From Balamuthia mandrillaris (lineage: Eukaryota): a stretch of 64,000 nucleotides of DNA. The stretch spans positions 372,001 through 436,000 of the forward strand of contig JAVKOQ020000008.1 of assembly GCA_031835245.2 (NCBI GenBank), in the 5' to 3' direction. Made by a program: the position numbers and the translations under genes. The notes below the pieces were generated by a model, which did no database searches, was not told the DNA's origin, and saw only the letters and a list, made by a program, of their open reading frames with translations. Positions 2,312-57,968 of this stretch are shown here, in pieces; the stretch's first letter is position 1; every line of letters begins with the position of its first letter.

Positions 2312-4783
<2,472 letters not shown>

Positions 4784-15375: not shown

Positions 15376-16294
15376 TTACTACAGCTGCGACTGGTAGGTC
15401 TTCTTCGTTTTTTTTTTGCTGTGTTTTCTTTTGCGTTGGTTCTAAATTTTTTCCTGGCAGAGATTTTCATGTTTAATTATGCGAACGGAAATTTTTTGTT
15501 CCTGGAAATTATTTAAAAATGTTTGAGGAGCCTTCCATGTTAACTCGCGGGGCGAAACAAAAGGAGGAGAGTGAGCCGCTACGAAGTAGAGGCGTGAGCG
15601 CTTTTGCCGAGGTTCCTCTGTACTAGCCGCCATGGAAGCGTGGAGTGTTACAGTTCAACCTCGGTGACGTTCCGTTCATTGTCAGCAGGAACGTTATTTA
15701 GAATAGTTTTTACCCCATGCAAAAACAACAGACGTTCCCTCTGCTGTACACCGCTAGCTACGGTATTCCTAGGAATGCGACAGGAAACACTATTTTTTGC
15801 GGTGACGGGAACAACACGGAAGAGAGAGAGATTCACAAAAGCGCGCCTTCCTCGCGCGACATCAAAAATGCTTGCACCGGGAGTCGAACGGCTTCCGCTG
15901 ACGAAATTTCATCGATCCAACCATTGTATTTTCTTCTTTCGGCCGCTGGACTTGCCACCAGTTTTCTTCGAGATCCACAATCAAAAAACCGAAAATGCCA
16001 TCTTTAAAGTTGTAAAGCCTCTGGTTTGATTTTGAACTTCACCAGGCTTCCCTTCTCTTTCTCTTGGTTTTTTTGTTTATCTGTTTTGAAACCAAAGAAA
16101 CAAGAGAAGTGGCACCAACTTCCTTGTTAACCAAGTTCAACAACTTACCACAACCAAAAAAAAAAAAAAAAAAAGTGAAAAGAAATAGGTACCTCCTCAT
16201 CAACGCTTCTTTTCTATCCTGTTATATGTTTTCATTTTTGCTCACAACAAAAAAACTACCCACCACCGAACGAAACAAAAAAGAATTCACTGAC

Positions 16295-18994
16295 ATGCAT
16301 AAAATGCAATGCGCAACGAAAGTGCCTGCCCTGCGCAGAGAGGCTCTCTCCGCTTTGACCACCCGCAACAAGGCCCTGCTTCCGTCCACAACTTCCTCCT
16401 CCCTCTTCTCCTCCTGCTGTGGACGATCCTTGTTCACCTACAGCTCTTCTTCCTGCTCCTCCTCTGCCTCTCATAAGGTCTCTCCTCTCCTTCTCGCTGC
16501 CAGAAGGGAGCTTCAGTCTTCTTCCGTCTTTTCCTCCAGAAGAGGTTATGCTGTCTTCAATCCGAACCATGGCAAAAAGTCGAATGCCTTCAGCCATAAG
16601 ACTGCCTGGCTGGTGGGAGCGGTCGTGACTGGAGGATATCTGCTCTATATGATGGAACGCCTGGAGAGGGACGTGGACAAGACCGACGCCAAGCTGGCCG
16701 GGGCCAAGGAGCCGGCCAGAGAGAAGGCCAGAGAGGCCGGCGTACGGGAGGACCACGACATGACCGCCCTTACCAAGAAAGGTTACGACAAGCTGAGAGA
16801 AGGAACCAGTACCGCTATCAAGAAGACCACCGGCATCGAGGTCGGCGAGCAAAAGGACCACAGAAGCAAGGAGGAGAAGAGGGAGGACGCTCGCATGCAG
16901 GACGCTGTGCAGAGAAGCAGAGAGGAGGCCAAGAATAACCATCCGGAGCTGTACAAGCGAGCGAAGAGGGAGGGACGCGAGGCGTATGGTGAGTACGAGG
17001 AGCATTACGAGAAGGTGCCCACCTTGAGGGAGGAGGCAGCTGAAACGCTGCAACAAGCCAAAGAGAAGACGAAAGAAGTGGCAGAAAAAACAAAAGAGAC
17101 GTATCGAGAGGGCAAAGAGATGGCCCGTGAAGTCTCCGACAAGGCCAAACAAACCTACCAAAAGAGCAAAGATACGGTTGGACAGATGGCAGAAACGGCG
17201 GAAGAAACGTACGAACGAGGCAAGAAGAAAACCGAGGAGGCTTGGCAACAGGGAAAGCAGGTGGCTGGAGAGGTCGCGAAGAAAGTGGAGGAGACCTACG
17301 AAAAAGGAAAGGAGAAAGGAAAGGAGTTGGGAGAGAGAGCCAAAGAACAGTATCAGAGAGGGAAGGAGAAAGCAGCTGAGATGGCGGAAGAGGCGGAGGA
17401 AACTTACGAAGAAGGTAAAGAGAAGGCTAAACAAGTTGGAAGATCCGTTCAGGACAAGTACCAACGAGGCAAAGAGAAGATGGGAGAAATGGCAGAAGAA
17501 GCCGAAGAGTCCTATGAAAAAGGCAAAAAGAAAGCCAAGGAAACAGTCAGAACTGCTCAAGACAAATATCAACAAGGAAAAGCGAAGATTGGAGAGATGG
17601 CAGAAGGAACAGAAGAAATTTATGAAGAAGGTAAAGAGAAAGCGAAAGAGGCAGCCAAAACGGCTTCAGTCAAGTACCAACGAGGCAAAGAGCAGATGGA
17701 AGGAACTTACGAAGCAGGCAAAGAGAAAGCCAAGGAAGCAACCAGAAGTGCTCAAGGCAAGTACCAACGAGACAAGGAGCAGATGGAAGAAACATACGAT
17801 GAAGGAAAGCAAAAAGGAGAAGAATTAGGAGAACGAGCCAAACAACAGCTTCAACGCGGCAAAGAGAAAGCAGAAGAGTTGTATCAACGAGGCAAGGAAA
17901 AAACTGGAGAAACCTACGAAGAAGGAAAGAAGGCAGAAGAAGGATACCAAGGAGGAAGGCAAAAAGGCGAGGAATTGGGAGAGAGAGCGAAACAACAACT
18001 TCAACGAGGCAAAGAAAAAATGGGCGAGGTGATTGAGGCCGGTAAAGAGAAGGCAAAACAAGTGAAGGAGAAGACCCTAGAAGCGTTTGAGAGCGGTAAA
18101 GAAAGAGCAAAGGGAGCTGCTGAAGAATTGCATAAACAACAAAGAAGAGGACGCGATGAAGTAGAACAAAAAGGAATGTTGCAGAAAGCCAAAGACACAG
18201 CGGTAGACACTTACGAGCAAGGCAAAGAGAAAGCCAAAGAATTGGGGCAAGAAGCCAAAGAAGCGATGAAGCCGCGTCCTGAACAATCACCAAAACGTCA
18301 CGTGGAAGAAGAAGCTAAACCAAAGCAGGACCAACAACAACCTGGTCTGCTACAGAACATCGCGATGGTGGGACACGAGTTGGTGGACAAAGTGGCTCAT
18401 AAAGCTGGTGAAATTGTAGGAGGAACACGAAAAGAGAATGACGAAGAGCGACAGAAAGCCATCGAGAAAGAAGCGGAACAAATTCGACGAAGAAATAGAG
18501 GAGAAAAAGAAGATAAGGGAAGAAGAGGCGGAGAAGCAGAAAAAGGAATGATGCAGAAAGCCTCTGATAAAGCCCACGAACTGGACGAAGCCACAAAAGA
18601 AGCTCTAGATCAAATGTCCGACGAAGAGAAAAAGCAGAGAAAACGATCCTCGTCTTCTCTCCCTCCTCCAAAACAACCTACTGAACCAACAAAAGAGCGA
18701 AAGGAGGAGAAGGAAGGAGATCTCGCTCCTTGGATGAAACCAGACACAAGACATCGCAACCTGGACAAACGCTACCAAGCTATCAAAGACTCTGCGGAGG
18801 AAGTCAAACGTAAACCCTTTGAGAGAAGAGATGCTGCCTATCGCGCTCGCAAAGAAGGCTCTTTGAGGCACTACAACGATGCTCAGTCCACTTACACAAT
18901 GCAAGAGACGCCTCATATCGACGGCAAGAGCCTCGAGCAGACCAGAGAGGCAGCAAAAGGCACCACTCGCGGCGTTCGTCAAACCAGCAGGTGA
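16295..18994 (+). CDS. LEA-like/apolipoprotein-like amphipathic helical repeat protein with predicted mitochondrial presequence and one TM segment, intronless
   Basis: R/S/L-rich acid-poor N-terminus ending RRGYA, hydrophobic WLVGAVVTGGYLLYM, then many YxxGKEKA repeats spaced 11 or 18 aa apart. Start may instead be 16304. Confidence 0.75.
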   Translation: MHKMQCATKVPALRREALSALTTRNKALLPSTTSSSLFSSCCGRSLFTYSSSSCSSSASHKVSPLLLAARRELQSSSVFSSRRGYAVFNPNHGKKSNAFSHKTAWLVGAVVTGGYLLYMMERLERDVDKTDAKLAGAKEPAREKAREAGVREDHDMTALTKKGYDKLREGTSTAIKKTTGIEVGEQKDHRSKEEKREDARMQDAVQRSREEAKNNHPELYKRAKREGREAYGEYEEHYEKVPTLREEAAETLQQAKEKTKEVAEKTKETYREGKEMAREVSDKAKQTYQKSKDTVGQMAETAEETYERGKKKTEEAWQQGKQVAGEVAKKVEETYEKGKEKGKELGERAKEQYQRGKEKAAEMAEEAEETYEEGKEKAKQVGRSVQDKYQRGKEKMGEMAEEAEESYEKGKKKAKETVRTAQDKYQQGKAKIGEMAEGTEEIYEEGKEKAKEAAKTASVKYQRGKEQMEGTYEAGKEKAKEATRSAQGKYQRDKEQMEETYDEGKQKGEELGERAKQQLQRGKEKAEELYQRGKEKTGETYEEGKKAEEGYQGGRQKGEELGERAKQQLQRGKEKMGEVIEAGKEKAKQVKEKTLEAFESGKERAKGAAEELHKQQRRGRDEVEQKGMLQKAKDTAVDTYEQGKEKAKELGQEAKEAMKPRPEQSPKRHVEEEAKPKQDQQQPGLLQNIAMVGHELVDKVAHKAGEIVGGTRKENDEERQKAIEKEAEQIRRRNRGEKEDKGRRGGEAEKGMMQKASDKAHELDEATKEALDQMSDEEKKQRKRSSSSLPPPKQPTEPTKERKEEKEGDLAPWMKPDTRHRNLDKRYQAIKDSAEEVKRKPFERRDAAYRARKEGSLRHYNDAQSTYTMQETPHIDGKSLEQTREAAKGTTRGVRQTSR

Positions 18995-19209
18995 ACGCGA
19001 CGGAGGAAGGATGATGATAATCCTCCCTTCTCTCTATTGTATAGCTCTTCATACCTTCAAAAGAAAAAGATGGTTTTTCTTATTTGTTTACTTTCAAGAA
19101 AAAGGACAAACGATTGAATGGGTTGTGTCCTTTTATGGAGTGGCGTTGGTGTGTCTCTTCGTGTGGGTGATGGGAATGTCGTCTTCACCAGCCGAGGCAC
19201 CAGGGAGGA

Positions 19210-22200
19210 ATGGGCTGTCGGAAGGGGAGGTTATGGCGATGGTGGTTGGTCTGGGCCGTCTTATGCTGTCTAACGGTGCACGGCCAGTTCTTCTTTCCAA
19301 CAACCGACATCGCGGTTTGCAGAAGAGGAGAGTGCGTGACATCGTTCCTTCCCTGTCCCTCAGCAACATGCTCCGCTGACTTGAACTTTAAAAAAGCTGC
19401 GATGTGAAGATATTGGTGAAAGCTTACCTTACCAATGAAGGGCACAACTGGGAGCTAGAATACACGCTGGATGATGGTAAACCTTTCTTTCTTTCTGCTC
19501 TGCAAGCCGCTAACAACTGGCGACAAAGACGTAAGTTTCAAGGATCAGTATGACCGCACATGGAAAGCAGCAGAACCTATCCAGCTCCGTCTTCGTCGCA
19601 CCCTGTCACGAATAGGTCCTCCTTTCGTTTCTGTTTCATTCTAACTCTTTCTGTTGCTTCCGCTGAAACAGGCTTTGTCTCACTCTAACAGAATACGGAA
19701 TGACCTACGAAGGAGCCTACAAGAACGCGTACGAAGTTCGAACGGGACGGACTTCCTCCGAGCGTTGTCTCGCCGATCGCGTGTGCTGTCCCAACGACGC
19801 CTCCTTCTTCCCTCTCATCGGCTCCGAGAGCTACTTGGCTCAAAACCAAACTCTCTATCACGCCTTCTCCGTCGGAAGAGGCAGCTGGGTCTATGCCGTC
19901 GAGGTCACCGCCACGCAGGGAACCGCCTTTGAGAGCTTGCGTCTAAGCAACCTCAACCCCTCCGACTCGATGCCCAGTTTAACCGCTCAAGTCTCCAGCA
20001 GTTCGTTGGTGCTCTCCTCGTTTGCTGACTTCAGTCCCTTTCGCTTGGTTTCATCGGAGGAGGAGAGCAAGGAGAAGGCCTTCGTGGTGCCGCTGCACCG
20101 GTTCGGCACCGACGTGAACAGGATCGGCATAACCAAACAGAGTTGGATGAACCACAAGCGATGCGAGGCTTCTCCTGAAACCTCGCTTACCGCAGTCGAT
20201 GGAGGTTCCAGGTTTGCTTTTTCATCTTTTATGGGAAGCGCTTCAGCCTTCTAACCTGCTTTTGTTATGTCGTCGAAGATATGATCAGTTTTCAAAGTTT
20301 CGAGGAGACACGGTGAATACTCTGGCTGAAGGGTGTCTGCTTATACCAGAGCTCTCGTTCACTGATCCCAGCAAACCTTCGCAGCTTAAACAGGTTTTTT
20401 GCGTTCGCTTCCGCTTCCTGTTTGCAATGCTTCTCACGCTGTCTCTAAAAAGTCGTTTGACTGCGAAAACGTTGGCTCGCTAAGGGTTCTGATGGAACTC
20501 TCCACAAGCTCCTTTCGACTGAGAGCTTTGTTTGGCCGTCCTTTCATAACCGTTCGTGCTCTTCGCTCTCTTCTCGCTGTGTTATCGTCTTGTTCTTTTC
20601 TGACTTGAACAAAAAGGCATCGGGCGTGTTTCCAATCCAAGATGGCGATACCCAAGCATTGTTATGTAAGCTCAATCGTTCGTCTGTCTGGTTGTTCTTT
20701 CGTTTCTGTCTCTTCTGATGACTATGGTTTCCTTCTTCTTCGCGGATGCAGACATTGATTGCAGCAACCAGGGAGATAGCACAGGCGTTTTTGAGTTTCA
20801 GCCGGTGCGATGCTGCATAGAGCTGGCTAGTCGCTTGCAAATGGATTGTGAGGTTGACATTCTTTTTTTGTTTTCTTCTTCTTCCTCTCCTGTTTCATTC
20901 TGTGCACAGGAAAAGCTAAAAGAGTGAATGTAGAGTGTTTCATTTGCGCGTGCCCTCTCGAGAACTATCGACAAAGACGAAACCGCACGAGTGATATTCA
21001 CGATCCATAACGAGGTCCTTCTTCCATTACAGGTTTTGTCTTTTCTCGTTCACTTGTCTTCTCATTCGTATTCGTATTCGTATTTGCCTTCGTCTTCTTC
21101 TTTCATTCGTACAACAAACAGGAAGCATTCAACACGAAAGGTTTCTGCCAGTTCGACATCGTGCAGCATGGTCTCACCGAGCTCACTCATCAAGTAAACT
21201 TTAGCACTCAGGTCATCCCCATTGCTCCGCCTCCCGGCTCTATTCCTATCTCAGGTTTCTTCCTCCTTCATTCATTCCTCCTTCATCCTTCTGGCTGGTT
21301 TCCAACTGCGTTCGTATCTCCTAAAAAACCAAACAACAAAAAGATGATGAGAGTTGTGCTCCACCAAAAAGAGTGGTACAAATGGGAGGGCAAAAGTACT
21401 GTCAACCTGCATGCACACCCGACCAGAACTTTCATGAGCCAACGCAAGCATGCCTCCCAGTGGATTGCGTCCTGAAATACCTCGGCACTCGCAACTGGTA
21501 TGACGCCAACCAAGGTCGTTGCGTTCCTGCTGCCATTTGTGAGGATGATCAAGTATGTCGTGTTCTAGCTTTCCCCACGAAGCATGTGTTAACTTTCTGG
21601 GAAAAAGGTGTTTGATGAGTTGAGCAATGAATGTGACAAGAACTTACCGCCCGACTTTGAAAGTGGAAGCACCTCTTCAGCACATAGTAATGATGATAAC
21701 GGTGGCATCAGTCCTGTTCCTCCAACAAAGGTTTCTATTAATGTTCTTCTTCTCACTCTTCTTCCTTTCTTCTTTCTCTTCTTCTAGTTCTAGTTCTTGT
21801 TCTTCAGCTTTCCCGCATTGCTCTCTTCGGTAGTTGATTTTCGTATTATTGCTTTTGTTTGTTTGTAGGTGGTAGATTGTGGTCCAAATGGCCGTTTGAT
21901 GGCCAATAACCTGAGTTGTGAGTGCAATAAAGGGTGGAGCAACGAACCGAATCAAGACATCTTTACGTACGTGTGGTGCACGCGCCATGGCAAAGACCTC
22001 GCTGGTTTCCAAGACCCATCGGAAGATCCTCAGCCGAACACCACGGTTTCCTTCTTTCCTTGCCTCCTTTCTCACATCATCCCTCTTCCTTTGACTTCAT
22101 GCTTACATCTTTCTTGCCTTCTCTTCTCATTGCTCTCCCTCTTCCTCTTGCTTTTACAGATAATCGGAGTGTTCATCGGAGTTGTGGTAGGTTGCTGTTT

Positions 22201-22711
22201 GCTCTGCGGAGTTGGGTGCGGTCTGTTGTGGAAACGAAAGCAGTTAAGAGCAAGAAAGAAAAAGAGGAAAGCATTAGCAGCAATAGAACAGAGGGAACAA
22301 GACCTTCTCTCCAGAGTGGCAGCCATGTTGCCTGCTGGATGGAACGTTGTTGATATTAGAGCGTCCGATATCACTTTAAAGAAAGATGCAGGCAAAGGAG
22401 ATGATAGCACCATTAAAAAGCAGAAAGAAGACGATGAATTGGAAAGTGGAGAAAGAGAAAAGAGTGTGGAGGAAGCATGCGTCGTTGATTCGACGATAGA
22501 GAACAAGGAGGAGAAGAAAAAGAAAGAAAAGGGGAAAGAGAGAATAATGATAAATACGCCTTCTCCGGGAGTAACATCTTTACCACTCACTCGAGGAAGA
22601 AGAGCACCAAGTAATGGTTTGTTGAGACTTGTTGTTGGCTATGAAGAAGAAGAAGAAGAAGAAGAAAATGAGGAGAAAGCTGAAGATGGAAATGGTGGGA
22701 AAGATTCGTGA
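19210..22711 (+). CDS. HAP2/GCS1 (fusexin)-like type I membrane protein with extra Cys-rich/EGF-like stalk (gene A), about 13 exons
   Basis: Manual splicing gives a signal peptide, then CRRGDCDVKILV, PIQLRLRRTLSRIEYGMTY, VCCP, LYHAFSVG, FVVPLHRFGTDVNRIGITKQSW..RC, LMELSTSSF, CSNQGDSTGVF, FCQFDIVQ..VNFST, Cys-rich repeats, a Cys-rich TM and a polybasic tail. These are colinear with remembered HAP2 sequence. Confidence 0.75.
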
Positions 22712-22828
22712 GTTGATTCAGAAAACAATTGTACATAGAACAAAAAAAAGTTAAACACAAAAACTCGTCAATTAAAAAAATAAATAAAAGAATGAGGGAG
22801 AGAGAGGATTGCTTTTCTGCTGTTGTTT

Positions 22829-25800
22829 CTACATGTTCATGAACCGAAGAGAGCGATTCTCTCTTTGCCGATGTTTTGTGTTGGAGAAAGGCATTGTCCC
22901 ACCTCCACACAAACACCGCTGAAGGCAGTAGAGAAAACCTGTCGCTAAAGAAAGAATCGTCACCCATTTGATCACTCTTCTTTGCGTACTTGTTCTCTTT
23001 GCATCCAAACGCCTGGGGTTGTGAAAAACAAAAAGAAAAAGCACAATTATAAAAATTAGTAGCAAAGAAAAGTAAAACAAGAGAGCAGCAGCAGAAGAAG
23101 AACAAGAAGAAGAAGAGCAAGAGCAAGAGCAAGAGCAAGAGCAAGAGCAAGAGCAAGAGCAAGAGCAAGAGCAAGAGCAAGGCAGAGCAAGGCAAGAGCA
23201 AGAGCAAGGCAAGAGCAAGGCAAGAGCAAGGCAAGGCAAGAGCAAGAGCAAGAGCAAGAGCAAGAGCAAGAGCAAGAGCAAGAGCAAGAAGAAAAGCGTA
23301 CATGGCTTGGTATTCATCCCAGTAAAGAACAGCATTCGCCTGTCCTTCTGGCAGTTCAAAAGCGGAAGGATGTGGGAAGAGCGAATTGTACAAGTCACGA
23401 ATGTAACGCAGCACTCTCCTGCTTGAAGGCTTTGTGTGATCAATGTCATCATTGACGCAAACAAACTTTCTGGGATGTTCCCGAATGCCGTCCAACATGC
23501 GTTGAGCGCTGGTGGCGTTGCCTGAGAGCATGACAAAGGCGACGTCGTCCGTGCCCTGAACCTCGTACTTGTTCTTGGAGCGAGAGACTTGGTGGTTGTA
23601 GAGCTGGTTCATTACCTCTTCGCAAGAGAGCAGTTCTTCTTTGTTGATGCGAATGGGATCTATTTCTTCTTCGATATATTCTTCTTCCTCTTGTTTCTCT
23701 GTTTGCTTATCCTCGTTTTCGTTTTGTTGTTGTTCTTGTTGCTCCTGATTTGGCAATTCCACGGCCTGAGCAACGCCTTCATTTTGTGTATTCGCTTCTT
23801 CTCGTTCTCGTTCTTGTTGTCCTTCTTGTTGCTCTTGTTCGTGTTCTTCCTCTTCTCGGGTTAATTCGGGAGGATGGATTTGGTCTTCCTTGTCTTCTTG
23901 TTGTTGCTGTTGTTCTTCTTGTTGTGCTTGTTCTTGAGGAAGGGCGCAAAGATTGAGGGGATCCTTCAACTTTGCCTTAAAGTCATTCCACGTGCTTTCG
24001 CTCAACGGGGAGCCATAAAGTCGCGTGGCCAGAGTGCGGAGCTCGTTATAGTCCAAATCACCAGAGCCATCGCCATCGAACCTCTGCCAAACGTCTTCAA
24101 ACTCAAAGCCTGCTTTCTCGTGTATGAGAAAGTAGAAGTAGGAGAAGGCATATTGCATGTCTTTTGGACTGCGAAAACGATGAGAGGAAGTCTCTGCGAA
24201 ATGTTCTGGCCAACGGGCTTGCAGTCTCTCCATCACTTGGATGTCTATCATATGAGGCATGTGTGCGATAACATTTCTGGCTGAGGGACCAAACTCTTGG
24301 TCGAGCAAAGAGTTGACGAAGCGAAGAGAATCTCCAAATGTGTCCAACAGTTGTCGTCGTTGCTTGTTATTATTGTTGTTTGCGTTTTGTTCTTCTGGTT
24401 GTTGTTTTTCTTCTTCTTTACCCCATTCAGAACGTTCCCAAGGAAAAAGAGAAGGCGGAGGTTGATTCTTCAGCTTCTTCTCTAATTCTGCCCAGTAGCT
24501 TTGTGATTGATGAGGAGATTCTGGAGGAAACGAAGAAATCAAATCGGATTCACGAGAAAGAGGCACCGGCTCTTTGGCCAATAGCCGACGCAAGTTTCTT
24601 GCGCGTTCCAAAGCTGCTTTTAAGGCTTGCTCTTCTTCGCTGAGTTTTCTGTCGACTATGTGTTCTTCTACTACGTTCTGTGTTGCTCTTTCTTCATTAT
24701 TCACTGTTTGTTGTTGCTCCGCATCGTTATCGTCCATCTCTTGTTCTTCGTGTTGTTCTTCTGTCGGTGTTGTTGCTTCCGCGGCATCTGTCGTGTGGTC
24801 TTGTTGTATTGTTGATGGAGGTAATAAGCCAGCTCGCAACACGATGTTGTATTCTGTTTCCACGTCGTTTTCAGACGTTTTAATAGAGATGGCTACATCC
24901 TGTCGTGTTACATTGCTAAAAAAAAGTCAGTAATACAAAATAGGGAAGAGTCTTTTCTTTTTTGAGAAAGAGAGAACGGAGGAGAGTGCGTGAGAGCGAG
25001 AGATGAGCTAACCGATGAAACGTGAGAGTCATGAGTTTATGCTTTTGTGAGATGGTGGCAGAACGAATCAAATCAGAATCCTCATGAGAGCCATCCACGA
25101 TGCGTGCCTCATGTACAAGTCCACTGAGTCCAACGTATGCTGCCAAGACATCACCAGGTATTTCTACGACAGCTCCGCTCTATATTTTTAAAACCAGAAA
25201 TGATGCATTCGTAAGAAAAAATATAGGAGGAACGAAAGAAATAGAATATAACCTCTGTGACGTTGGCACCATATACGTTGGAAATAACGGTTTCGACGCC
25301 ACAATCTCCTGCATCCATACCACAGTCTTTGTTCTTGCAAGGCTCATCGCAGTACTTATCTCCTATCCAACTTTTTTTGTCGTAGGTTTTGTTACTAAGC
25401 TAGAGAGTAGAGTAGAGTAGAAAGAAAATCTTTGAGAACAAACCTGTCAGGACATCCCCAGCTACAGTACTGGTTGGCCTCTGAATTCTTTGACCCTGTC
25501 ATATGTTATAAATGAGAGAGCAGAGAGCAGAGAGAGGATTAACTTACAGGGAAAAGACCATCCACCGCCCACACCTTGATTAGGAGCAACTCCAACACAA
25601 TCTCCTCCATCCCAACTGCAGGCACTGACATTGCAAGCCACATCACAATATCCATCTTTAATCCAACCAGCAGGACATCCAGGAGCACAGTCAGGAACAG
25701 GCCATGCCAAAAAGACCTTTTGTCCTTTGCCCTGTGTGTAAAAGTCGTCCGGCCATATGGGAGAAGAAAAGAGTGTGTCATCGTTGAGATAGAGAAACTT

Positions 25801-26103
25801 ATTGGAGAGACCGGGAATACGATGAAGGTGTGCCTCTATTGCGGGAGAGGAGAAGGTAGGGAGGTGGCTCTTGTTGAGGAAGATCATGTCGTGGGTGATG
25901 AGGCGGATGCGAGGATGGGAGAGGTCCAGCCAGTAGGGAATCTGGCCGTTGGTTACCACGTAGATGTTGCGCACCCACGGTGCATTGAATTCCAAGGAAC
26001 GAAGGGAGTAACGCAAGTCTTCGTTGTCTGTGTTGCGTTCGGTTTTTTTTTTTTTTGTGTGTGTGTGTGTGTTATTGTCTCTTAGATTTTTTTCTGTTTT
26101 CTC

Positions 26104-26178
<75 letters not shown>

Positions 26179-26940
26179 CGACAAAACAAACCTATGAAAC
26201 GGCTGAGAGAGTCGCTGTCACGATAACAATTTTGGGAGGCAGCATCAGCTGTGGAAGAGGCAGGTGAAGTTGTTGCAGCATCGTTGTTGTTGTCGTTGTG
26301 GTTGTTGCGTTTGTCGGCACTAGTCTCTGCGTTCTCTTCATCCTTTGGAGTGCACAAGTCTTACCGAGCAAGAGTAAGTATAAAAAGAGACTAACAGAAG
26401 AGAGAGAGAGAGAGAGAGAGAGAGATGAGAGAGAGAGCTTACAGCTATTATCGCCTAGCATGCTCTTCGTCCGCGCGATCGCTGGTTCACCGCAGAAACA
26501 GAAGAAGAAAAGAAAAAAAGCAACATTTCAAACAGAGCAATGAGACGCAAGCAACAAAAGAAGAAGGAGAAGAAGAAGATGATGGAACACAAGCAAAAAG
26601 GAGCAAGAGAAGCGGGATCAAGTAAGGAGAACGCGAACGAAGAAGAAAAAGCATACGAACCTTCAAGCAGACGCGGGTCGCTGCCATTCACCCACGTGTA
26701 CACCACATCGATCTCCGGAGCGCAGAGATTGTCCTCAAAGGAGCGACCCACGATGTTGTTCCCCCAATCCCGGAAGAAGAGCGAGGAGGGGGAGGAGTAG
26801 GCAGCGTTGTCCAGCAGGTGGTCCACGATGGAGAAGGTGGTGTTGAGGAGGAAGAGCATGCCCACCACGCAAGCGGCCATGCCCCACCGCGTGGACAGGA
26901 ACGTCAGGAACTTGCGCTGCACCAGCTTGCGCAGCGTCAT
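22829..26940 (-). CDS. GNPTAB: GlcNAc-1-phosphotransferase alpha/beta precursor (Stealth family, GNPTAB-like), multi-exon
   Basis: N-terminal [15 protein letters not shown] (Stealth CR1), [32 protein letters not shown] (CR2), LNR repeats, [15 protein letters not shown] (CR3), an EF-hand, [10 protein letters not shown] (CR4) and a C-terminal TM. Confidence 0.92.
23100..23290 (+). repeat. (GAGCAA)n / (GGCAA)n intronic microsatellite
   Basis: Tandem repeat visible in the last GNPTAB intron. Confidence 0.9.
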
Positions 26941-27442
26941 TTCTCTCGCCCCTCTAGAGTTCTCTCTTCCCTCGCCTCCGCAAAGAGAGAATCTTTCTTT
27001 CACGATTTCTTCTTTCTTTTTGTGTCGAAAATGTGCGAAGCACCCCTCGTGAATAACCACGTCGTCATGGTTTTATTTAATGTCGATGTTCCATGTCGTC
27101 ATGTTAATCGGGTGTTTCGTGTCGACGTCAATACTGCATCGTGTCGTCATTTGTATACGCATTCCGATCTCTGTAAAGATTTCGGGAATGATGGGACCAA
27201 TCGGCACACGCCACATCATCTGTAAATATTAAAAACCCCTCGACTCATTGTCGACAAATAACAATTTACCGTTTCGCTTTTCTTTTTCGTCGCTCTGCCC
27301 TCTAATTTTTTTTTCCTCTTCTCTTCGACACCAACAACAACCTAAACACACAGACACACACCCGTTGGGCGGCCTGTTTTCACCGTTGGGCGACGATCAC
27401 ACACACCACACACACACTAAATAATTTTTTTTTTAAAAAAAC

Positions 27443-28993
27443 ATGGCCTCGTACCAAGGACACGCGACCAGCTCTGCCAAGGTGCAGCAGGTGAAGAAGG
27501 GAGAGATCACTCACTCCTACAGCGAGGAGGAGAAGGAGGCCTTCACCGAGTACATCAACATGGCCCTCGGCAAGGACGCTGACCTGCGCCGCATCCTGCC
27601 CCTGAACGCCCAGGACGAGTCCCTCTTTGCCGGCGTGCACGACGGCCTGCTCCTCTGCAAGCTCATCAACGACGCCATCCCCGACACCATTGACGAGCGC
27701 GTCCTCAACAAGGGCGACATCAACACCTACAAGAAGCACGAGAACCAGACCGTGGCCATCAACTCTGCCAAGGCTATTGGCTGCAACGTCGTCAACATTG
27801 GCGCTCAGGACTTGATCGACGGCATCCCCCACTTGGTGCTGGGCCTCATTTGGCAGATTGTCAAGATTGGGCTCTTCTCCAGGATCAACTTGGTCAACCA
27901 CCCCGAGCTCTACCGCCTCCTCGAGGAGGGCGAGACCATTGAGGACCTCTTGAAGCTCCCCATTGAGGAGATCCTGCTCCGCTGGGTGAACTACCACCTC
28001 AAGAACGCCGGCTGGCCCAAGAGGGTGAACAACTTTAGCGGCGACATCAAGGACGGCACCGCCTACACCGTCCTCCTCGCCCAGATCGCCCCCAAGCACT
28101 GCAACAGGGACCCCCTGAACGCCTCCAGCGACCTCAAGCGCGCCGAGCTGGTGTTGGACAATGCCGACAAGCTTGGCTGCAGGAAGTTTGTGGCCCCCAG
28201 GGACATTGTGCGCGGCAACAAGAAGCTCAACTTGGCCTTTGTGGCCAACCTCTTCAACACCTGGCCCGCCCTGGAGCCCGTGGAGGACGTGGAGATCATC
28301 GAGGAGACCCGCGAGGAGAAGCAGTTCCGTAACTGGATGAACAGCTTGGGTGTGGAGCCCTTCGTGAACAACCTCTACCTCGACCTCCGAGACGGCTTGG
28401 TCCTCATCCAGCTCTTCAAGCAGGTGGAGCCCGGCATTGTGGACGACAGCAAGGTCAACTGGAACCCCACCACCACCTGGAAGAAGCTCGAGAACGACAA
28501 CTACGCCGTGGAGTTGGGCAAGCAGCTCAAGTTCTCCCTGGTCGGCATTCAAGGCAAGGACATCTTGGACGGCAACAAGACCCTCACCCTGGCTGTCGTC
28601 TGGCAGCTCATGAGGCACCACGTACTCTCCATCCTCAAGCGCCTCGGCGGCGGCCAGGCCATTGGAGACAGTGACATTATCCGCTGGGCCAACGATAAGG
28701 TCAGGTCCGCCGGCAAGTCCTCCTCCATGGCCTCCTTCAAGGATAACTCGCTCCGAGACAGCAAGTTTTTGATCGACTTGGTGGATGCCGTTCGCCCTGG
28801 TGCTGCCGACTACTCCCTGGTCTCTGACTCTAGGGACGACAAGGACCTGTTGTTGAACGCCAAGTACGCTGTGAGCTTGGCCAGAAAGATTGGCTGCTGC
28901 GTGTTTGCCCTGCCCGAGGACATTGTGGAGGTGAAGAACAAGATGATCATGACCTTTGTGGCCACCGTCATGGCTGTTGACTTGGGTCACTAA
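27443..28993 (+). CDS. Fimbrin/plastin actin-bundling protein (four CH domains), intronless
   Basis: HSYSEEEKEAF, DGLLLCKLIN..PDTIDER, AKAIGCNVVNIGAQDL, LNLAFVANLFN, ETREEKQFRNWMNSLG and LPEDIVEV. Strong C/G third-position codon bias. Confidence 0.97.
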   Translation: MASYQGHATSSAKVQQVKKGEITHSYSEEEKEAFTEYINMALGKDADLRRILPLNAQDESLFAGVHDGLLLCKLINDAIPDTIDERVLNKGDINTYKKHENQTVAINSAKAIGCNVVNIGAQDLIDGIPHLVLGLIWQIVKIGLFSRINLVNHPELYRLLEEGETIEDLLKLPIEEILLRWVNYHLKNAGWPKRVNNFSGDIKDGTAYTVLLAQIAPKHCNRDPLNASSDLKRAELVLDNADKLGCRKFVAPRDIVRGNKKLNLAFVANLFNTWPALEPVEDVEIIEETREEKQFRNWMNSLGVEPFVNNLYLDLRDGLVLIQLFKQVEPGIVDDSKVNWNPTTTWKKLENDNYAVELGKQLKFSLVGIQGKDILDGNKTLTLAVVWQLMRHHVLSILKRLGGGQAIGDSDIIRWANDKVRSAGKSSSMASFKDNSLRDSKFLIDLVDAVRPGAADYSLVSDSRDDKDLLLNAKYAVSLARKIGCCVFALPEDIVEVKNKMIMTFVATVMAVDLGH

Positions 28994-29239
28994 ATCCGTT
29001 CTCCCCTTTCTTCTGTGGATGGTAGCCAACTTGGAAACTTGTGTACAGTCTGTGTGTCAAAAAAAAAATAGAGAATAAACGATCCAAAAAGTTAAACAGA
29101 AATAATACGAGAATAAAGGAGAAGGAAGCGACCAACGAACGAAGAGAAGAGGAGAGAACAATGCTAGCTTCGTCAGCTCAAACAGGAAGTAGATTTGTTT
29201 CTGTACAAAAGAGATATCAGCGGGAAGGAGTCAACATGC

Positions 29240-31445
29240 TCAGAGGAACACAATCTCGTCGTCTTCGTCGTCGGAAAAGAACTTTTCAGCGTGGTAGACT
29301 TTGGTCCTTTCTTTCTTCAGGTAATGAGGTGTCTCGTCTGCGATTTCGTACATCGTCATCAGCTCTTTGTTCATCTGGCAGAAACAGCAGAGAAGGATGT
29401 TAACAACCACAAAAGAAGACTGGCGAGAAGAAGAAGAGGAGGAGAGAAGAGCGAGAAAGAAGAATGAACCTGTCTGCTGCGTTGGCAAAAGTCATCAAAG
29501 GACTCTTGCGTAGGACAGAAGAAGGCAAGCGCAAGAGAAGGATCGATGTCGCGGATAGCAAGTCGATGAGGAATGGCGCAGTGGTAGCTTGCGAGGAACT
29601 CTACCAATTGTTCTTCTTTTGCATCCTCTCCCGCGTTTTCTTTCTTTTCCTTTCCCTTTTCACACTGAGCAGCAGCGGGCGAAGAAGGAGAAGAGGAGGT
29701 AGGAAAGAGGAGAGGATCAGTGGGTTGAATGGTGTGGGGATCAAAGTAAAACAAGTCATTATCTGTTGAATAGAAGAATAGATCAGTATTGGGGAAGTAA
29801 GAAGACGAGAAAAAGAAAGAAGAAGACAGAGAAATAAGTGATAAGAAAGAAGGCGAACCTTGATAGCCCACAAAATAGAGAGAAGAACGAGGTTTGCCTC
29901 CAACGATGCCTAGGCTTTGAGGAAAATGGAATGTATGTTTCAAAGCAGGTATGTATACCTGGTTAAGGCTGTCCAGACCCAATCGTAACGGAATGATGAG
30001 CAAAAGAGGCCGCCATTGCTTCTCCTCTTGCTCCTCTTGTTCTTCTTCCTTGTTGCCTTCATTGCAAGTGCTTTGGAGGCATCGTTCCATGATTTGATCT
30101 TTGTACAGGCAACCGTCTGTCGAAACGTAAACAGCTAAATTGGTGGGGTTATTTTCTTGGACAACTTCTCTGTTGGTGTTTAAAAAAATAGCGTTTGTTA
30201 ACACAAGGGAGAAGAAAGGAAAAGGAGTGAGCACAGAAGAAGAGAAAATAGAAGTACTCTAAAACTTGAGCGATGGTGGATGGGCCAAACCACTCGCCAA
30301 CGTTCTTCCCAAACTTAAGTCCATTTTGTGCGATATTATGAATAGAAAATGGGCAGAGAGGATGGTCTCCAAACAATCGCAATATCTTATGAACATATGT
30401 TAACGTTTATGCAAAACAAATGTCGAAAGAAAGAAAGAAACAAGCAGTAAAAGGTCTACCTGTGCATAGTGCTGTGGTGGTGGTTCCAATGGATCCAATC
30501 GCCACTCTTAGAATAAAATGTTCATTTAGACGAAGAAGAAAGATGAAGAAGAACAAGAAGAAGAGGAAGAAATGGAAAAGAACTAGCAGCAAATAGAAAA
30601 TACATGGAAAGCAGGAATCAGACCTCTTCCAAGAAGTTGAGAGCTAAGTGCTTGCCCAAGAAGCATCTGCCCGCTACGAAGAGTGCATCCCCAACCAACA
30701 TCTGAAGTAAAGGGAGAGGGCTCGATGCGGTGAAAGTCTTTGCGGTAAGTAAACCACAGCCTAGAGAAAAAGTCTTTCAGAAAGGCAGGAAAGGGAACGG
30801 TTGGCCGTATTCCCTCTTCCTTGTCTTTCTCTCCCTCTTTTTGTTCGTTGCCGCCTCTACGAGGACGCGGCGGTGTTATGACTTGGTCATCGTCCTTCTT
30901 GTAGCATCGACCGAGCATCCATACAGGAGAGTCGGAGAAAGCAGGAAGTTGTTTGTATCCTTTGTGGAACAAGAAGAGGAAGAAATAAGAGAGGAGGAGA
31001 AGGAGGATAAGAAGGACGAGAGAAAGAAGCGAAGAGCCTGGTAAACGAAAATGAGAAGAGAAGAGAAGAGAAGAGAACGATGAAGAGAAGAGAACGATGA
31101 AGAGAAGAGAAGAGAAGAGAAGAGAAGAGAAGAGAAGAGAAGAGAAGAGAAGAGAAGAGAAGAGAAGAGAAGAGAAGAGAAGAGAAGAGAAGAGAAGAGA
31201 AGAGAAGAGAAGAGAAGAGAAGAGAAGAGAAGAGAACGATGAAGAGAAGAGAAGAGAAGAGAACGATGAAGAGAAGAGAATGATGAAGAGAACGATGAAG
31301 AGAACGATGAAGAGAACGACGAAGAGAAGAGAAGAACGGTGAAGAGAAGACGAGAGAGCAAGAGAGAGAGAGAGAGAGAGAAGAGAGAAGACGAATCACA
31401 GAACAACGTACCTGACTCGTGGAGAAGGTTATAGTAAAAGTCCAT
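29240..31445 (-). CDS. ATG4: ATG4 cysteine protease (peptidase C54), multi-exon
   Basis: [81 protein letters not shown] and an acidic C-terminus. Start assigned to MDFYYN, the only in-frame ATG. Confidence 0.9.
31050..31390 (+). repeat. Intronic compound satellite (AAGAG)n with AACGATG variants, the reverse complement of the 9.1-9.9 kb repeat
   Basis: Directly visible. Lies in the first ATG4 intron. Confidence 0.95.
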
Positions 31446-32198
31446 TTTAGCGACGGTACAAAGCCAAAAGTAGCGAGTGTAAAAAAGGGCCTTTTGAGGA
31501 AGTCCAGAGGAAGAAGTTCTTCTGTGAGACCCTTTCTTTGTGGACGTCGATGCTGCAGTCGAGCTTCTCTTTCTGGCCGAGGCTAGCCTGCTTCCGCTCG
31601 AGGCCGCTCTTCTCAAAGCAAACAGGGAGGGGAGAGGATCCGACGAGGAGACAGCAGCAGGCGGGGAGGGAGAAGAGGAGGAAGGAGTGGCAGCAGTAGG
31701 TGGTTTGATAGGTCTCGCAACAGAAGGAGCACAAGGTGCACGCTTACGAGAGGCCGAACAAGAGGGAGAGAAGAGGGAGGAGAGCAGATGGTTCCCCTTC
31801 TCACCACCCGTCTGCTTCGTGGGGTTGTTGCAGTTAAGGTTGTTGCTTTTTGGTGGTAGTCTTCCAGCAGGCAAAGAAGGACGTTTTCGGTGGTAGTTGG
31901 TCTGCGCGCGCTTTGTCCTGTTGTTGACGGGAGGCGTGGTCCCCTCCAGCTTTGCCCTCTTCTCTGTTTTTTTTTTGTCTTTTTTTCTTCTTCGATCATA
32001 AGGGTCACGGATGACGTAAGTTATGCTGTTAATGGAAACTGATGAGGTCAATAAATATCTAGATCTTTAAAATCAAAGGCCCAATCAGAAATCAAAATAT
32101 TAATGAATGAATTCACCATAAAAAGGAATTGTCCACAAAAAATGAAATCAAGCGTTACAATGAAGCGACGTTCAGTTTAGCATGCAAAGAGCAACGGG

Positions 32199-32353
32199 AT
32201 GATGAAGGGCGCGCTTGCAAGTACCACGTGGCGGTTACTGCTGGTGGTAGTACTAGCTTGCCATGATAGGTTGAAAGTGATGGGAGGACTTGACTCCGTT
32301 CGATGGACTCCACCAGATTGCTCTGAAGGGTTACGGTCCTTCCCTTGCTCGCT

Positions 32354-32395
<42 letters not shown>

Positions 32396-33610
32396 CTCTC
32401 TCTCTTCACTTGCAGCGCTTCTGTTCTTGTAACAAGACCTTAATGATAAAGAGTTGGGAATTGTCGATCGGATCTTCAAGTCAGCATTCATTTGGATAAA
32501 ACGGAGCTCTCCTACCAACGAACATGGGAATACTTTGTTACTTCTTCGTCAGATCCGAGACCCATCTTTCTCCAGAAGCCTTTTACTCTGAAAACGGAGG
32601 TTTCCACTACTGCAGCAGGTATCTAGCCCCTCAACAACAACAACATCACAAACAAAAAAAAAAAAAAATGCATCAAAAAGCATTGGTTCTTATAGTGGAA
32701 CTTACATATTTTGTTTATATTGTTTCGTTCATTTAAGTGCTTCAGTTGATGCACACAGAAATTATCTACAACACTTTTGAAGACTTTGTACCAGATCCAT
32801 TCTGTCCCTATATGCCCAAGGTTCCATTCTATATATTCTTTTATTATTTCAATCTCAGAAGCAAAAAAAAAAAAAAACTCGCTTACTTCCTTCTTTCACA
32901 CTAATAGAGAGGTCGTTGTACAGAAACCACACGAGAAGCTCAACGAAAACTTGTTCTCTGCTGTCAAGGATACGCCAGAAGAGGAGTTGGTCAACATTGC
33001 TTGAAGAGCAACCTATCCGAAGCGTATGATGTTTATGCGGTGCAACAGGTGAGGTTGCCTCTTCGTGTGACTGTCTCTGTCGGAGAATCCGATGAGGACA
33101 TGAAAGAGCTTCTTGTCATGACAGATACGAACCGAGAATATCGAACAAGCAAAGCAGACGTAAGTATCTTTTGTATAAGCATGAGAGAATATAAAGTGAA
33201 GAAACGAAGGACAAAGGAAATCAGAGGCCAACTGACGCTTGCTATAATGGTATGTAGGGATTGCTTCAAATGTACTCGGACGATGATGACGCTTATGGAT
33301 TGTTAAAACTGCCTCCGTTGGTCGTCCTAATGGTGCGCTCTCACCCATCGTCCGCCACAAAATCAGACTGGAGGTACATTCCTTTATTTTTCTACCGTGG
33401 TTGTGTTTCATATGGTTCTTGTTATTTGTCCTGCAGTTGTTAAAGCTCTCCTTATTATTATTAGGAATTGGTTTTATGTGTACAAAGCTAGCATTCCCAA
33501 GCAATTAGGGATGACAGAAGAGCAGTGGCGTTTGGTTGCTTCCTGTGATTCCACTCGCAACGCGCATACTCAGACCAACCCCGTTCGGCCAGAGTAACTC
33601 TCTCTGCTCT

Positions 33611-33646
<36 letters not shown>

Positions 33647-33948
33647 TCTCTCTCCCTCCTCCCTCGTGAGTGCAACCTTCTTTTGGTTAATGCTTTGCCG
33701 TGGCACAAGAGATCAGTTTCTATTGCTGCGAGAAAACAGGTTGGATAAACTTCTCTCTCTGTCAATGAGAGATATGGCTCTTTATGATCACCCGTCCCAG
33801 CGGTTGTAGCCACCCCCTTCCGTTTGCTTCGTCTTTCATTCTCATACCAAACTGCAGGTTGGACATGGCCATCCCGCGAAGTCCTGAGCCTCTTCAACTG
33901 GACCTGATCATCCGCCACATTCCTGTACACTTCAACGCCTCCCGCTGA
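32199..33948 (+). CDS. Secreted HAP2/GCS1 (fusexin)-like protein, domains I-II only (gene B), 8 exons, 353 aa
   Basis: Exons 32199-32329, 32452-32618, 32738-32820, 32908-33159, 33258-33373, 33465-33593, 33710-33802 and 33858-33948 join in frame (1062 nt). Product includes a signal peptide, CSEGVGNCRSDLQV, KPFTLKTEVSTTAAVLQL, FC..RC..LCCQG..QHCLK..YDVYAV..LRVTVSVG, NWFYVY..KQLGMTEEQW..SC and DQF. Confidence 0.7.

Positions 33949-57916: not shown

Positions 57917-57968
<52 letters not shown>

What the first reader, a model, noticed from the sequence alone, without database searches (positions are those of the whole stretch)
19210..33948. Candidate two-component fusexin system: a membrane-anchored and a secreted HAP2/GCS1-like paralog about 10 kb apart
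Seen: two plus-strand genes, fragmented by short introns and therefore missed by the ORF track, splice into proteins that align with each other (e.g. FVVP..RIGITKQSW..RC / WFYV..QLGMTEEQW..SC; DQFSKFR / DQFLLLR). They share three intron positions with matching phase: phase 2 between the first two Cys, phase 1 before the EYGMTY/VLQLMH strand, and phase 2 before DQF. Established: HAP2/GCS1 is the class-II gamete fusogen with domains I-II-III, a TM segment and disulfide-stabilised fusion loops at the domain II tip. Inference: both genes follow the HAP2 motif order but look complementary. Gene A has domain III, TM and a basic tail but an eroded fusion-loop region. Gene B keeps the loop cysteines and HCLK (cf. 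HCLRF) but has no domain III or anchor. They could form heterotrimers, act as fusogen plus soluble activator or inhibitor, or form a ligand/receptor pair for cell-cell recognition or cryptic sex in an amoeba.
Basis: partly seen in the sequence, partly recalled or inferred. Interest (0 to 1): 0.93.

Follow-up and report, generated by a model that had tools for sequence, protein, structure and literature searches.

The report
Anchored and anchorless HAP2-like amoeba paralogs
Two neighbouring genes of the amoeba Balamuthia encode distant relatives of the sperm-egg fusion protein HAP2: one is a complete membrane-anchored member of a widespread short-tipped branch that likely fuses cells, and the other is a shortened, likely secreted copy with unusually different alleles that would regulate that fusion, although no interaction between them has been shown.

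Summary
Both spliced genes are real and both are HAP2 homologs; that they work together is untested. The window is Balamuthia mandrillaris.

Gene A (14 exons, 821 aa) has the class II fusogen fold. HAP2 structures are its best matches. It carries domains I-II-III, a Cys-rich/EGF-like stalk, one TM segment and a basic tail.

A's short tip is not erosion. It is the design of a pan-eukaryotic family (141 hits, including Anaeramoeba, Naegleria and Pharyngomonas) that mostly falls below Pfam's HAP2 cut-off. This scan noted similar short-tip proteins on other DNA.

Gene B (8 exons, 353 aa) matches that family's profile (46.7 bits; shuffles at most 2.3) over domains I-II only and stops at the domain III linker. 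It has a signal peptide and no anchor. B keeps the HCL cysteine, but its cd loop is as short as A's, so the proposed complementarity fails.

One intron is shared exactly and two nearly. Three housekeeping genes lie between A and B.

New observation: B's two haplotype copies differ at 13% of residues, against 2.7% for A and 0.6% for fimbrin.

Best reading: A is a divergent fusogen and B a soluble regulator or recognition factor.

The parts
19210..22711 (+). Gene A, short-tip HAP2-like fusexin, 821 aa. Exons: 19210-19331, 19397-19476, 19529-19615, 19692-20211, 20279-20393, 20453-20551, 20617-20665, 20752-20852, 20934-21032, 21122-21254, 21344-21552, 21608-21730, 21869-22045, 22160-22711
   Evidence: no stops, 13 GT-AG introns; NCBI QOT17_001816; introns 1 and 12 crossed by RNA reads
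19210..19284 (+). A: likely signal peptide (aa 1-25); absent from the NCBI model, which starts upstream
   Evidence: hydrophobic core; family members begin the same way
19288..20533 (+). A: fusexin domains I and II (aa ~27-335), with the short tip C122-x5-C128C129, cd segment holding FFPLI, sequon N148, DQF motif
   Evidence: AlphaFold2 model; 268 residues at 2.9 A rmsd to Chlamydomonas HAP2 6DBS; alignment
20534..21214 (+). A: Ig-like domain III (aa ~336-455)
   Evidence: Z 10.9, rmsd 2.3 A over 96 residues to P. berghei HAP2 domain 3, 7LR4
21344..21634 (+). A: family-conserved Cys-rich module (aa ~470-547), fold unassigned
   Evidence: conserved Cys and Tyr in 19 aligned sequences; modelled at pLDDT mostly 87-95; no convincing PDB sequence match
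21869..22045 (+). A: EGF-like module (aa 580-638)
   Evidence: Pfam EGF_Teneurin E 0.049, below cut-off; recurs weakly in many family members
22160..22711 (+). A: Cys-containing TM helix (aa ~639-661), basic stretch, long disordered charged tail
   Evidence: hydropathy; model helix 633-690 and pLDDT below 50 after 695 in P0001 numbering
32199..33948 (+). Gene B, domain I-II-only HAP2-like protein, 353 aa. Exons: 32199-32329, 32452-32618, 32738-32820, 32908-33159, 33258-33373, 33465-33593, 33710-33802, 33858-33948
   Evidence: equals NCBI QOT17_001820; family profile 46.7 bits over aa 40-309; hhalign 96.6%
32199..32285 (+). B: likely signal peptide (aa 1 to ~29); the only hydrophobic segment of the protein
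   Evidence: peak 3.57 at aa 13; at most 0.87 in any later 19-residue window
32738..33159 (+). B: domain II tip exons, with strand-b Glu114, C122, C131, C145, C146, R151-R152, H157-C158-L159 and sequon N162
22830..26940 (-). Intervening gene: Stealth-family/GNPTAB-like phosphotransferase (ends approximate)
   Evidence: Pfam Stealth CR2, CR3, CR4, LNR, EF-hand
27443..28993 (+). Intervening gene: fimbrin/plastin, intronless
   Evidence: four CH domains; second-haplotype copy named Plastin-3
29240..31960 (-). Intervening gene: ATG4-like cysteine peptidase (ends approximate)
   Evidence: Pfam Peptidase_C54 E 1.8e-44

Best explanation
Gene A encodes a membrane-anchored protein with a predicted HAP2 (class II fusogen) fold, from a short-tipped HAP2 branch found in several eukaryotic lineages, and likely drives cell-cell fusion; gene B encodes a homolog that ends after domains I-II, has no anchor, is likely secreted, and would act on A as a soluble regulator or partner-recognition factor rather than as a fusogen. 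Steps: (1) shown: both genes, their homology, A's architecture, B's truncation at the I-III linker and the 13% difference between B's two copies. (2) Predicted: A's fold. (3) Inferred from fusexin mechanism: A trimerises through domains I-II and folds domain III back; with a minimal and poorly conserved cd loop it probably works from both membranes, as EFF-1 does, or needs a partner. (4) Inferred: B has the trimer-forming domains but nothing to fold back and no anchor, so it cannot pull membranes together; joining or capping A trimers would hold fusion in check or gate it by allele. (5) Inferred: B arose as a partial duplicate of an A-like gene.
For: Fold of A: model with mean pLDDT 77, 396 of 817 residues at 90 or more. 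Foldseek ranks 1-8 are HAP2 chains (best E 9e-20), then Fsx1. In a Foldseek-independent search of 48,161 chains, ranks 1-4 are HAP2 (Z 17.4, 15.1, 14.7, 11.4). The family profile hits Arabidopsis and T. cruzi HAP2 at E 5.5e-8 and 3.6e-6. Family: 141 hits at E<=1e-3, 69 at <=1e-10; named members come from Anaeramoeba, Naegleria and Pharyngomonas (4 of 10 looked up had a species or protein name from NCBI/UniRef or EukProt). Homology of B: 46.7 and 56.1 bits (two copies) on a profile built without A or B, against at most 2.3 in 500 shuffles. All 6 family cysteines in that span, the sequon and DQF fall in register. B looks maintained: both copies are open, keep all 9 Cys and end at the same place; 0 of 78 differences in aa 30-107; 35 of 46 changes have BLOSUM62 >= 0. 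Allelic excess: aa 108-353 of B differ at 39 of 246 positions against 7 of 257 in domains I-II of A (Fisher p 2.4e-7). An independent-looking contig set (X1) shows 21 of 231 nucleotide differences at B's 3' end, introns included, against 99 of 2542 in 8 other pieces (p 0.001). Precedent (passages read): soluble monomeric EFF-1 inhibits and soluble trimers stimulate fusion (PMC8784728); both paralogs are needed in Dictyostelium (PMC4910948) and Leishmania (PMC10630298).
Against: No member of the short-tip family has been shown to fuse anything. The family lacks the cd fusion loops, the conserved Arg and several tip cysteines that PMC6089408 shows matter in HAP2, so A may be non-fusogenic. Three housekeeping genes separate A and B. 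No B ortholog was found outside Balamuthia: a B profile scores at most 11.2 bits on 143 family proteins, and one search found only the two copies. Trees do not place B as A's sister; A+B is neither recovered nor rejected (p-AU 0.69 and 0.30). B is about 18% identical to the family at best, so trimer surfaces may not be compatible. High allele divergence is also expected from relaxed selection or a locally old haplotype block, and the baseline is only two other genes and eight short contig pieces.
Confidence: 0.4

Rival explanations
1. B is a functional secreted paralog with a role of its own (adhesion, matrix or cyst-wall component, signalling). It lies near A only because it arose by local duplication; there is no two-component system.
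For: Three unrelated genes in between; B's branch is 2.5 to 4 times the median length; B has lost the family's last disulfide pair and gained or kept another; A's relatives are found without any detected B-like partner.
Against: Linkage has survived although A and B are no longer alignable pairwise, which suggests an old pair; the truncation falls right at the domain I-III linker, keeping the whole trimer core.
Confidence: 0.3
2. The short-tip family, A included, is a non-fusogenic offshoot of HAP2: a surface adhesion, receptor or chaperone protein that works beside a canonical HAP2 encoded elsewhere.
For: No conserved hydrophobic cd loop: several members have none to one hydrophobic residue there. 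0 of 32 have the HCL or CNKIG cysteine, and 21 of 32 carry a glycosylation sequon just after the tip. A conserved Cys-rich/EGF stalk lengthens the distance between domain III and the membrane. Acanthamoeba, the closest sequenced relative, has a HAP2 detected by standard profiles (PMC6263441, passages).
Against: All three fusexin domains, the TM segment and the Cys/basic tail are kept across distant lineages; EFF-1 fuses without a hydrophobic loop and Fsx1 with a reduced tip and an extra domain (PMC8784728, PMC9259645); A itself has FFPLI in the cd loop.
Confidence: 0.25
3. B (with A) marks a mating-type or self/non-self locus: B's alleles are old, balanced specificities, comparable to the HAP2-like MatD and MatT genes in the Dictyostelium mating-type locus.
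For: 13% allele divergence concentrated in domain II and after, with an invariant domain I start; the neighbouring intron is also about 13% diverged in X1 (7 listed differences in 55 nt); the assembly carries both forms in the same gene order; PMC4910948 states that MatD and MatT have weak HAP2-motif homology.
Against: Only two alleles seen; both haplotypes carry the same gene set, unlike the idiomorphic Dictyostelium locus; changes are mostly conservative; no mating is documented for Balamuthia in the papers searched; no mating-type regulator was recognised nearby.
Confidence: 0.15
4. B is a truncated duplicate under relaxed selection, on its way to becoming a pseudogene.
For: Loss of domain III, stalk and anchor; long branch; many amino-acid differences between copies.
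Against: Two open alleles with seven intact GT-AG introns in this one, all cysteines kept, 78 identical residues in a row, only 3 conservative changes at 29 family-conserved columns; far too diverged from A to be a recent accident.
Confidence: 0.07

Closest known systems
HAP2/GCS1 gamete fusogen (Pfam PF10699; PDB 5OW3, 5MF1/6DBS/6E18, 7S0K, 5OW4)
   Same: Predicted domain I-II-III fold and order, strand-b Glu, signal peptide, single TM with Cys and basic tail (A). B keeps domains I-II and the HCL cysteine.
   Different: Below Pfam cut-off (A 13.9 of 27.4 bits, B no hit). cd loop cut to 15-18 residues; 3 (A) or 5 (B) cysteines where HAP2 has seven invariant ones; no CNKIG cysteine. A adds a Cys-rich/EGF stalk; B lacks domain III and anchor.
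Two-paralog HAP2 systems: Dictyostelium HgrA/HgrB, Leishmania HAP2-1/HAP2-2, Plasmodium HAP2/HAP2p
   Same: Two HAP2-related genes in one protist; in these cases both matter for mating.
   Different: There both paralogs are membrane-anchored and at least one is a recognisable HAP2. HgrB is about 1,700 aa and dictyostelid-specific. Whether any of them belongs to the short-tip family could not be tested, as their sequences were not in hand.
Dictyostelium MatD/MatT
   Same: Weakly HAP2-like genes that differ between mating types in an amoebozoan (PMC4910948, discussion).
   Different: They sit in an idiomorphic mating-type locus; here both haplotypes carry A and B in the same order. No sequence comparison was possible.
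Archaeal Fusexin1 (7P4L) and nematode EFF-1 (4OJC)
   Same: Fusexin fold (Z 10.6 and 9.3); reduced or non-hydrophobic tip; Fsx1 also has an extra Cys-bonded domain after domain III.
   Different: Lower structural scores than HAP2; likeness of A's stalk to Fsx1 domain IV was not shown.
Anchorless bacterial HAP2 homologs
   Same: Secreted-type HAP2 relatives without TM; score 29-39 bits on the short-tip profile.
   Different: They keep the long cd loop, the CNK-type and HCLR cysteines and domain III; B lacks domain III.

Membership tests
Fusexin superfamily (gene A) | Class II fold with domains I, II, III | tested here: met
   (predicted model); profile-to-PDB hits without a model
Fusexin superfamily (gene A) | C-terminal membrane anchor | tested here: met
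   one TM segment, aa ~639-661
Fusexin superfamily (gene A) | Trimer formation and membrane fusion activity | not testable with these tools
Fusexin superfamily (gene B) | Homology over domains I and II | tested here: met
   B-led alignment hits 5OW3, 5OW4, 7S0K, though most rows of it are family members
Fusexin superfamily (gene B) | Fold confirmed by a structure model | tested here: inconclusive
   single-sequence model, pLDDT 36; its fold search is uninformative
Fusexin superfamily (gene B) | Domain III and membrane anchor | tested here: not met
   stop at aa 353 in both copies; no domain III, stalk or EGF exon outside gene A among 1778 six-frame pieces; no hydrophobic segment
Canonical HAP2/GCS1 | Pfam PF10699 above cut-off | tested here: not met
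   A 13.9 bits vs 27.4, B no hit; 1 of 47 family hits passes
Canonical HAP2/GCS1 | Seven invariant cysteines in the b-c-d tip region (PMC6089408) | tested here: not met
   A has 3, B has 5
Canonical HAP2/GCS1 | Glu (strand b) - Arg (cd loop) salt bridge | tested here: inconclusive
   Glu present in both; no Arg in A's cd segment; B has R151/R152 as candidates; geometry not examined
Canonical HAP2/GCS1 | Extended hydrophobic fusion loops in the cd connection | tested here: not met
   18 (A) and 15 (B) residues vs 42 in bacterial HAP2 homologs; A has one hydrophobic patch, B only one Tyr and one Val
Canonical HAP2/GCS1 | Cys of the CNKIG motif in the ij loop | tested here: not met
   Val in A, Pro in B, Cys in 0 of 32 family members and 3 of 3 bacterial homologs
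Canonical HAP2/GCS1 | Gamete-stage expression and need for mating | not testable with these tools
   RNA depth under 4x, stage unknown
Short-tip HAP2-like family (unnamed) | C-x-CC tip, sequon after the tip, DQF, domain III, Cys-rich module, EGF-like module, TM (gene A) | tested here: met
   581.8 bits on a profile built without A
Short-tip HAP2-like family (unnamed) | Same features in gene B | tested here: inconclusive
   tip, sequon and DQF met; last disulfide pair, domain III, stalk and TM absent; HCL Cys present unlike 32 of 32 members; trees cannot place B inside or outside (p-AU 0.30 and 0.38)
Two-paralog fusogen system (HgrA/HgrB type) | Both genes needed for the same fusion event | not testable with these tools
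   needs genetics
Dictyostelium-type mating-type locus | Different gene content between mating types | tested here: not met
   both contigs carry A, plastin and B in the same order with the same locus-tag spacing; only two haplotypes seen
Fsx1 domain IV / CBM14-like | Stalk module has the domain IV fold | tested here: inconclusive
   whole-model searches cover only aa 19-451; module profile finds no such PDB sequence; one member has a weak CBM_14 hit, E 0.0067

The most novel reading that the evidence does not exclude
Eukaryotes carry a second, ancient fusexin lineage (short tip, Cys-rich stalk) that standard HAP2 searches miss and that fuses cells in amoeboid and flagellate protists, including those reported to lack HAP2. 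In Balamuthia a secreted domain I-II-only paralog with balanced alleles enters or caps its trimers and so decides which partners may fuse: a fusogen gated by a truncated copy of itself acting as a mating-type determinant.
Probability: 0.12. Interest if true: 0.93.

Novelty: new variant of a known kind. Interest (0 to 1): 0.66.

Why it matters
The proteins behind cell fusion in many amoebae are unknown, and HAP2 is reported missing from fusing amoebae such as Cochliopodium and Arcella (10.64898/2026.07.05.736552, passages). A widespread HAP2 branch that only 1 of 47 tested members reveals to Pfam gives a concrete candidate, and means that 'HAP2 absent' calls need re-checking. A natural fusexin made of domains I-II only was not found in the papers searched; it would be a ready-made test of how domain III fold-back and trimer make-up control fusion. 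B's deeply diverged alleles offer a marker for cryptic sex or self-recognition in a lethal human pathogen with no described sexual cycle. Even if A and B are independent, the family and the truncated form stand.

Tried and rejected
No whole genome was held, so a canonical HAP2 or further paralogs elsewhere in Balamuthia could not be sought.

A first set of exon coordinates had off-by-one errors and was corrected.

Pairwise A-B alignment was not significant. Single-sequence searches of PDB sequences gave only chance hits. The ESM Atlas gave no usable hit for A and sub-threshold Notch-ligand clusters for B. The single-sequence model of B had pLDDT 36 and its fold search was meaningless.

Word-based protein searches found only the two Balamuthia copies of each gene. 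Metagenome scans for A and B found no relatives among 92 and 371 pattern matches.

Sequencing runs: no RNA holder listed. In three raw RNA runs 15, 32 and 1 reads lay on the gene A stretch. None lay on B's exons beyond traces at an A-rich intron, but neighbouring genes reached only about 2.6x, so this says nothing on B's expression or on co-expression.

Allele baselines for seven other ORF starts failed because the exact sequences are not in the collection. PF10699 was found in 0 of 401 planctomycete genomes searched and in 2 of 401 of another class, 1 above cut-off.

Trees were quick searches only; B is a long branch and unplaced (17 and 21 of 38 rows were kept in the smaller trees, long or redundant rows dropped). 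Complex prediction of A with B was not available; nothing was folded.

The idea that A's stalk is Fsx1 domain IV was not supported or excluded. Rejected: A's tip as decay; B as supplier of a full fusion loop; a hidden domain III exon after B.

Literature searches showed no paper on HAP2 in Balamuthia, on this family, or on a domain III-less eukaryotic HAP2. The library lacks most subscription papers. Supplements of bioRxiv 10.1101/2025.02.25.640156 (encystment expression tables) are closed and may bear on expression.

Full report
SOURCE AND GENE MODELS. The window is eukaryotic and matches Balamuthia mandrillaris proteins at 100%. Reading the three frames and joining exons by coordinate gave gene A, 19210-22711, 14 exons, 821 aa, and gene B, 32199-33948, 8 exons, 353 aa. 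All 20 introns are GT-AG and there are no internal stops. B is identical to NCBI's QOT17_001820. A differs from QOT17_001816 at the N-terminus, where NCBI's model has no signal peptide, and at intron 7; the model given here scores 20 bits higher on the family profile. RNA reads of run X4 cross introns 1 and 12 of A, 3 reads each; the other 11 introns of A and all 7 of B have no read support at this low depth. Between A and B lie a Stealth/GNPTAB-like gene, fimbrin and an ATG4-like gene. A second contig carries copies of A, plastin and B in the same order. The genome is described as diploid-like with nearly all core genes duplicated (10.1101/2025.02.25.640156, passages), so I read that contig as the other haplotype.

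GENE A. Alone, A gives only a weak Pfam hint (HAP2-GCS1 best hit, E 0.02, 13.9 bits against a cut-off of 27.4). A search of 1.84 billion representatives returned 141 relatives, many full length at 24-35% identity. Of 143 proteins examined, 53 match from domain I, and 43 of these run on through the stalk region. Named members come from Anaeramoeba (Metamonada), Naegleria and Pharyngomonas (Heterolobosea); five of ten looked up had no name. Only 1 of 47 members passes Pfam's HAP2 cut-off. Their profile nevertheless finds Arabidopsis and T. cruzi HAP2 in the PDB (E 5.5e-8 and 3.6e-6). An AlphaFold2 model from a 68-row alignment is confident over the ectodomain. Its best structural matches are HAP2 chains, then Fsx1 and viral class II proteins. 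Domains I-II superpose on Chlamydomonas HAP2 at 2.9 A over 268 residues and domain III on Plasmodium HAP2 domain 3 at 2.3 A over 96; whole-chain rmsd values are high because domain III sits differently. After domain III come a conserved Cys-rich module, an EGF-like module, one Cys-containing TM helix, a basic stretch and a disordered tail.

THE TIP IS A FAMILY DESIGN. HAP2 has seven invariant cysteines, a Glu-Arg salt bridge and variable fusion loops at the domain II tip (PMC6089408, passages). In 32 aligned family members the tip is C-x-CC followed by a cd segment of median 13 residues; none has the HCL or CNKIG cysteine, and 21 carry a glycosylation sequon just after the tip. Three bacterial HAP2 homologs fetched as a reference have a 42-residue cd segment and both cysteines. 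A, with 18 residues including FFPLI, is a typical member.

GENE B. B does not align with A by itself (253 of 1000 shuffles score as high). Against a profile of 45 family members built without A or B, it scores 46.7 bits over aa 40-309, and its second copy 56.1; 500 shuffles reach at most 2.3. Profile-profile comparison gives 96.6% probability. Six family cysteines, the strand-b Glu, the sequon and DQF are in register. B has two extra cysteines, C122 and the HCL cysteine C158. These could form the bond that Fsx1 shares with HAP2 (PMC9259645, passages; the pairing is my inference). B's bc segment is longer than in any of the 32 members (31 against a maximum of 30, median 17), but its cd segment is only 15 residues and mostly polar or basic. 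B stops at the position of the domain I-III linker in both copies. No domain III, stalk or EGF exon exists in the window outside A, and B has no hydrophobic segment after its signal peptide. One intron is shared exactly with A and two lie within 1-3 codons in the same phase. This supports common descent but does not date it. Trees leave B as an unplaced long branch; neither 'sister to A' nor 'outside the family' is rejected. No B ortholog was seen in other species, but the searches had little power for it.

ALLELIC DIVERGENCE. The two copies differ at 3 of 509 residues in fimbrin, 19 of 695 in A (2 of them from the intron 7 annotation difference) and 46 of 352 in B. Within B there are 0 of 78 differences in aa 30-107 and 39 of 246 in aa 108-353. 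Contigs of run X1 carry second-haplotype residues at both genes and differ from the window at 21 of 231 bases at B's 3' end, against 99 of 2542 in eight other pieces. The excess includes silent and intron sites, which points to an old haplotype block rather than only relaxed protein constraint. The baseline is small, and X1 may not be independent of the assembly. Changes are mostly conservative and spare all cysteines, so B is not decaying.

HOW IT LIKELY WORKS. Fusexins trimerise through domains I-II and fuse membranes when domain III folds back towards the anchored end (PMC8784728, parts 1-2 of 5 read). A has all these parts. With a minimal tip it would more likely act from both membranes, like EFF-1, or with a partner; this is inference, and a non-fusogenic role remains open (25%). 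B has the trimer core but no domain III or anchor, so it cannot be a fusogen alone. Soluble EFF-1 fragments can inhibit or stimulate fusion (same paper), and class II fusogens are usually held in check by a partner (10.64898/2026.10.13.757955, passages; PMC13601591, abstract). The simplest joint model is that B binds or co-assembles with A and gates it, perhaps by allele. I put this at 0.4, against 0.3 for independent roles.

COMPARISON WITH WHAT IS KNOWN. Pairs of HAP2 paralogs are known in Dictyostelium (PMC4910948, parts 1-3 of 4 and a supplement search), Leishmania and Plasmodium (PMC10630298, passages), but there both are anchored. Dictyostelium MatD and MatT are weakly HAP2-like genes in the mating-type locus (PMC4910948). 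HAP2 is reported in Acanthamoeba (PMC6263441, passages) and missing in Cochliopodium and Arcella (10.64898/2026.07.05.736552, passages). PMC8569187 and PMC12047770 (passages) added nothing. Ten literature searches showed no description of this family or of a domain III-less eukaryotic HAP2; closed-access papers were not covered. Neither protein passes the tests for canonical HAP2. A is a fusexin of an unnamed HAP2 branch, and B is a truncated relative.

VERDICT. Observation largely right, complementarity wrong, system unproven. New variant of a known kind; interest 0.66, resting on the hidden family, the domain I-II-only paralog and its diverged alleles.

Noticed in passing
window 32199-33948 vs P0004: B's two copies are identical over aa 30-107 but differ at 25% in the signal region and 16% after aa 108; the sharp border may be a gene-conversion tract or strong constraint on domain I.
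   Followed up: partly
window 19177-19290: NCBI's model of gene A uses an upstream ATG and an extra intron and loses the signal peptide; the second-haplotype model (P0002) also lacks the first exons and one domain III exon, probably annotation errors.
   Followed up: partly
window 21317-21407 and 21599-21648: A contig of run X1 skips 89 bases across the intron 10/exon 11 border and 48 bases across the intron 11/exon 12 border of gene A, with non-GT-AG ends; it could be a deletion allele damaging the Cys-rich stalk, or an assembly artefact.
   Followed up: no
P0007: A 929-aa protein fragment carries the family's Cys-rich module followed by several EGF repeats, so the stalk can expand.
   Followed up: no
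L081, L083, L084 (G747:C51:752-5332): Three tandem HAP2 homologs in a bacterial genome, Pfam E 1e-58 to 4e-67, open frames of 540-563 aa; used here only as a reference.
   Followed up: partly
window 3205-4491 (-): RecQ-like helicase whose helicase core is 40-50% identical to bacterial proteins; origin not examined.
   Followed up: no
window 16226-18994 (+): Long intronless, highly charged ORF with a mitochondrial-targeting-like N-terminus and LEA/YtxH-like repeats, directly upstream of gene A.
   Followed up: no
window 9964-13110 (+): OTU-like cysteine protease domain (E 0.00055, below cut-off) at the start of a long ORF.
   Followed up: no
window 35752-36777 (-), 41837-43057 (+), 46017-46988 (-), 57344-58357 (+): C2-ankyrin protein, HID1/dymeclin-like, cyclic-nucleotide phosphodiesterase and MTHFR fragments; ordinary genes.
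   Followed up: no
window 23110-23290 and 31050-31390: Long purine-rich simple repeats inside introns of the Stealth-like and ATG4-like genes.
   Followed up: no
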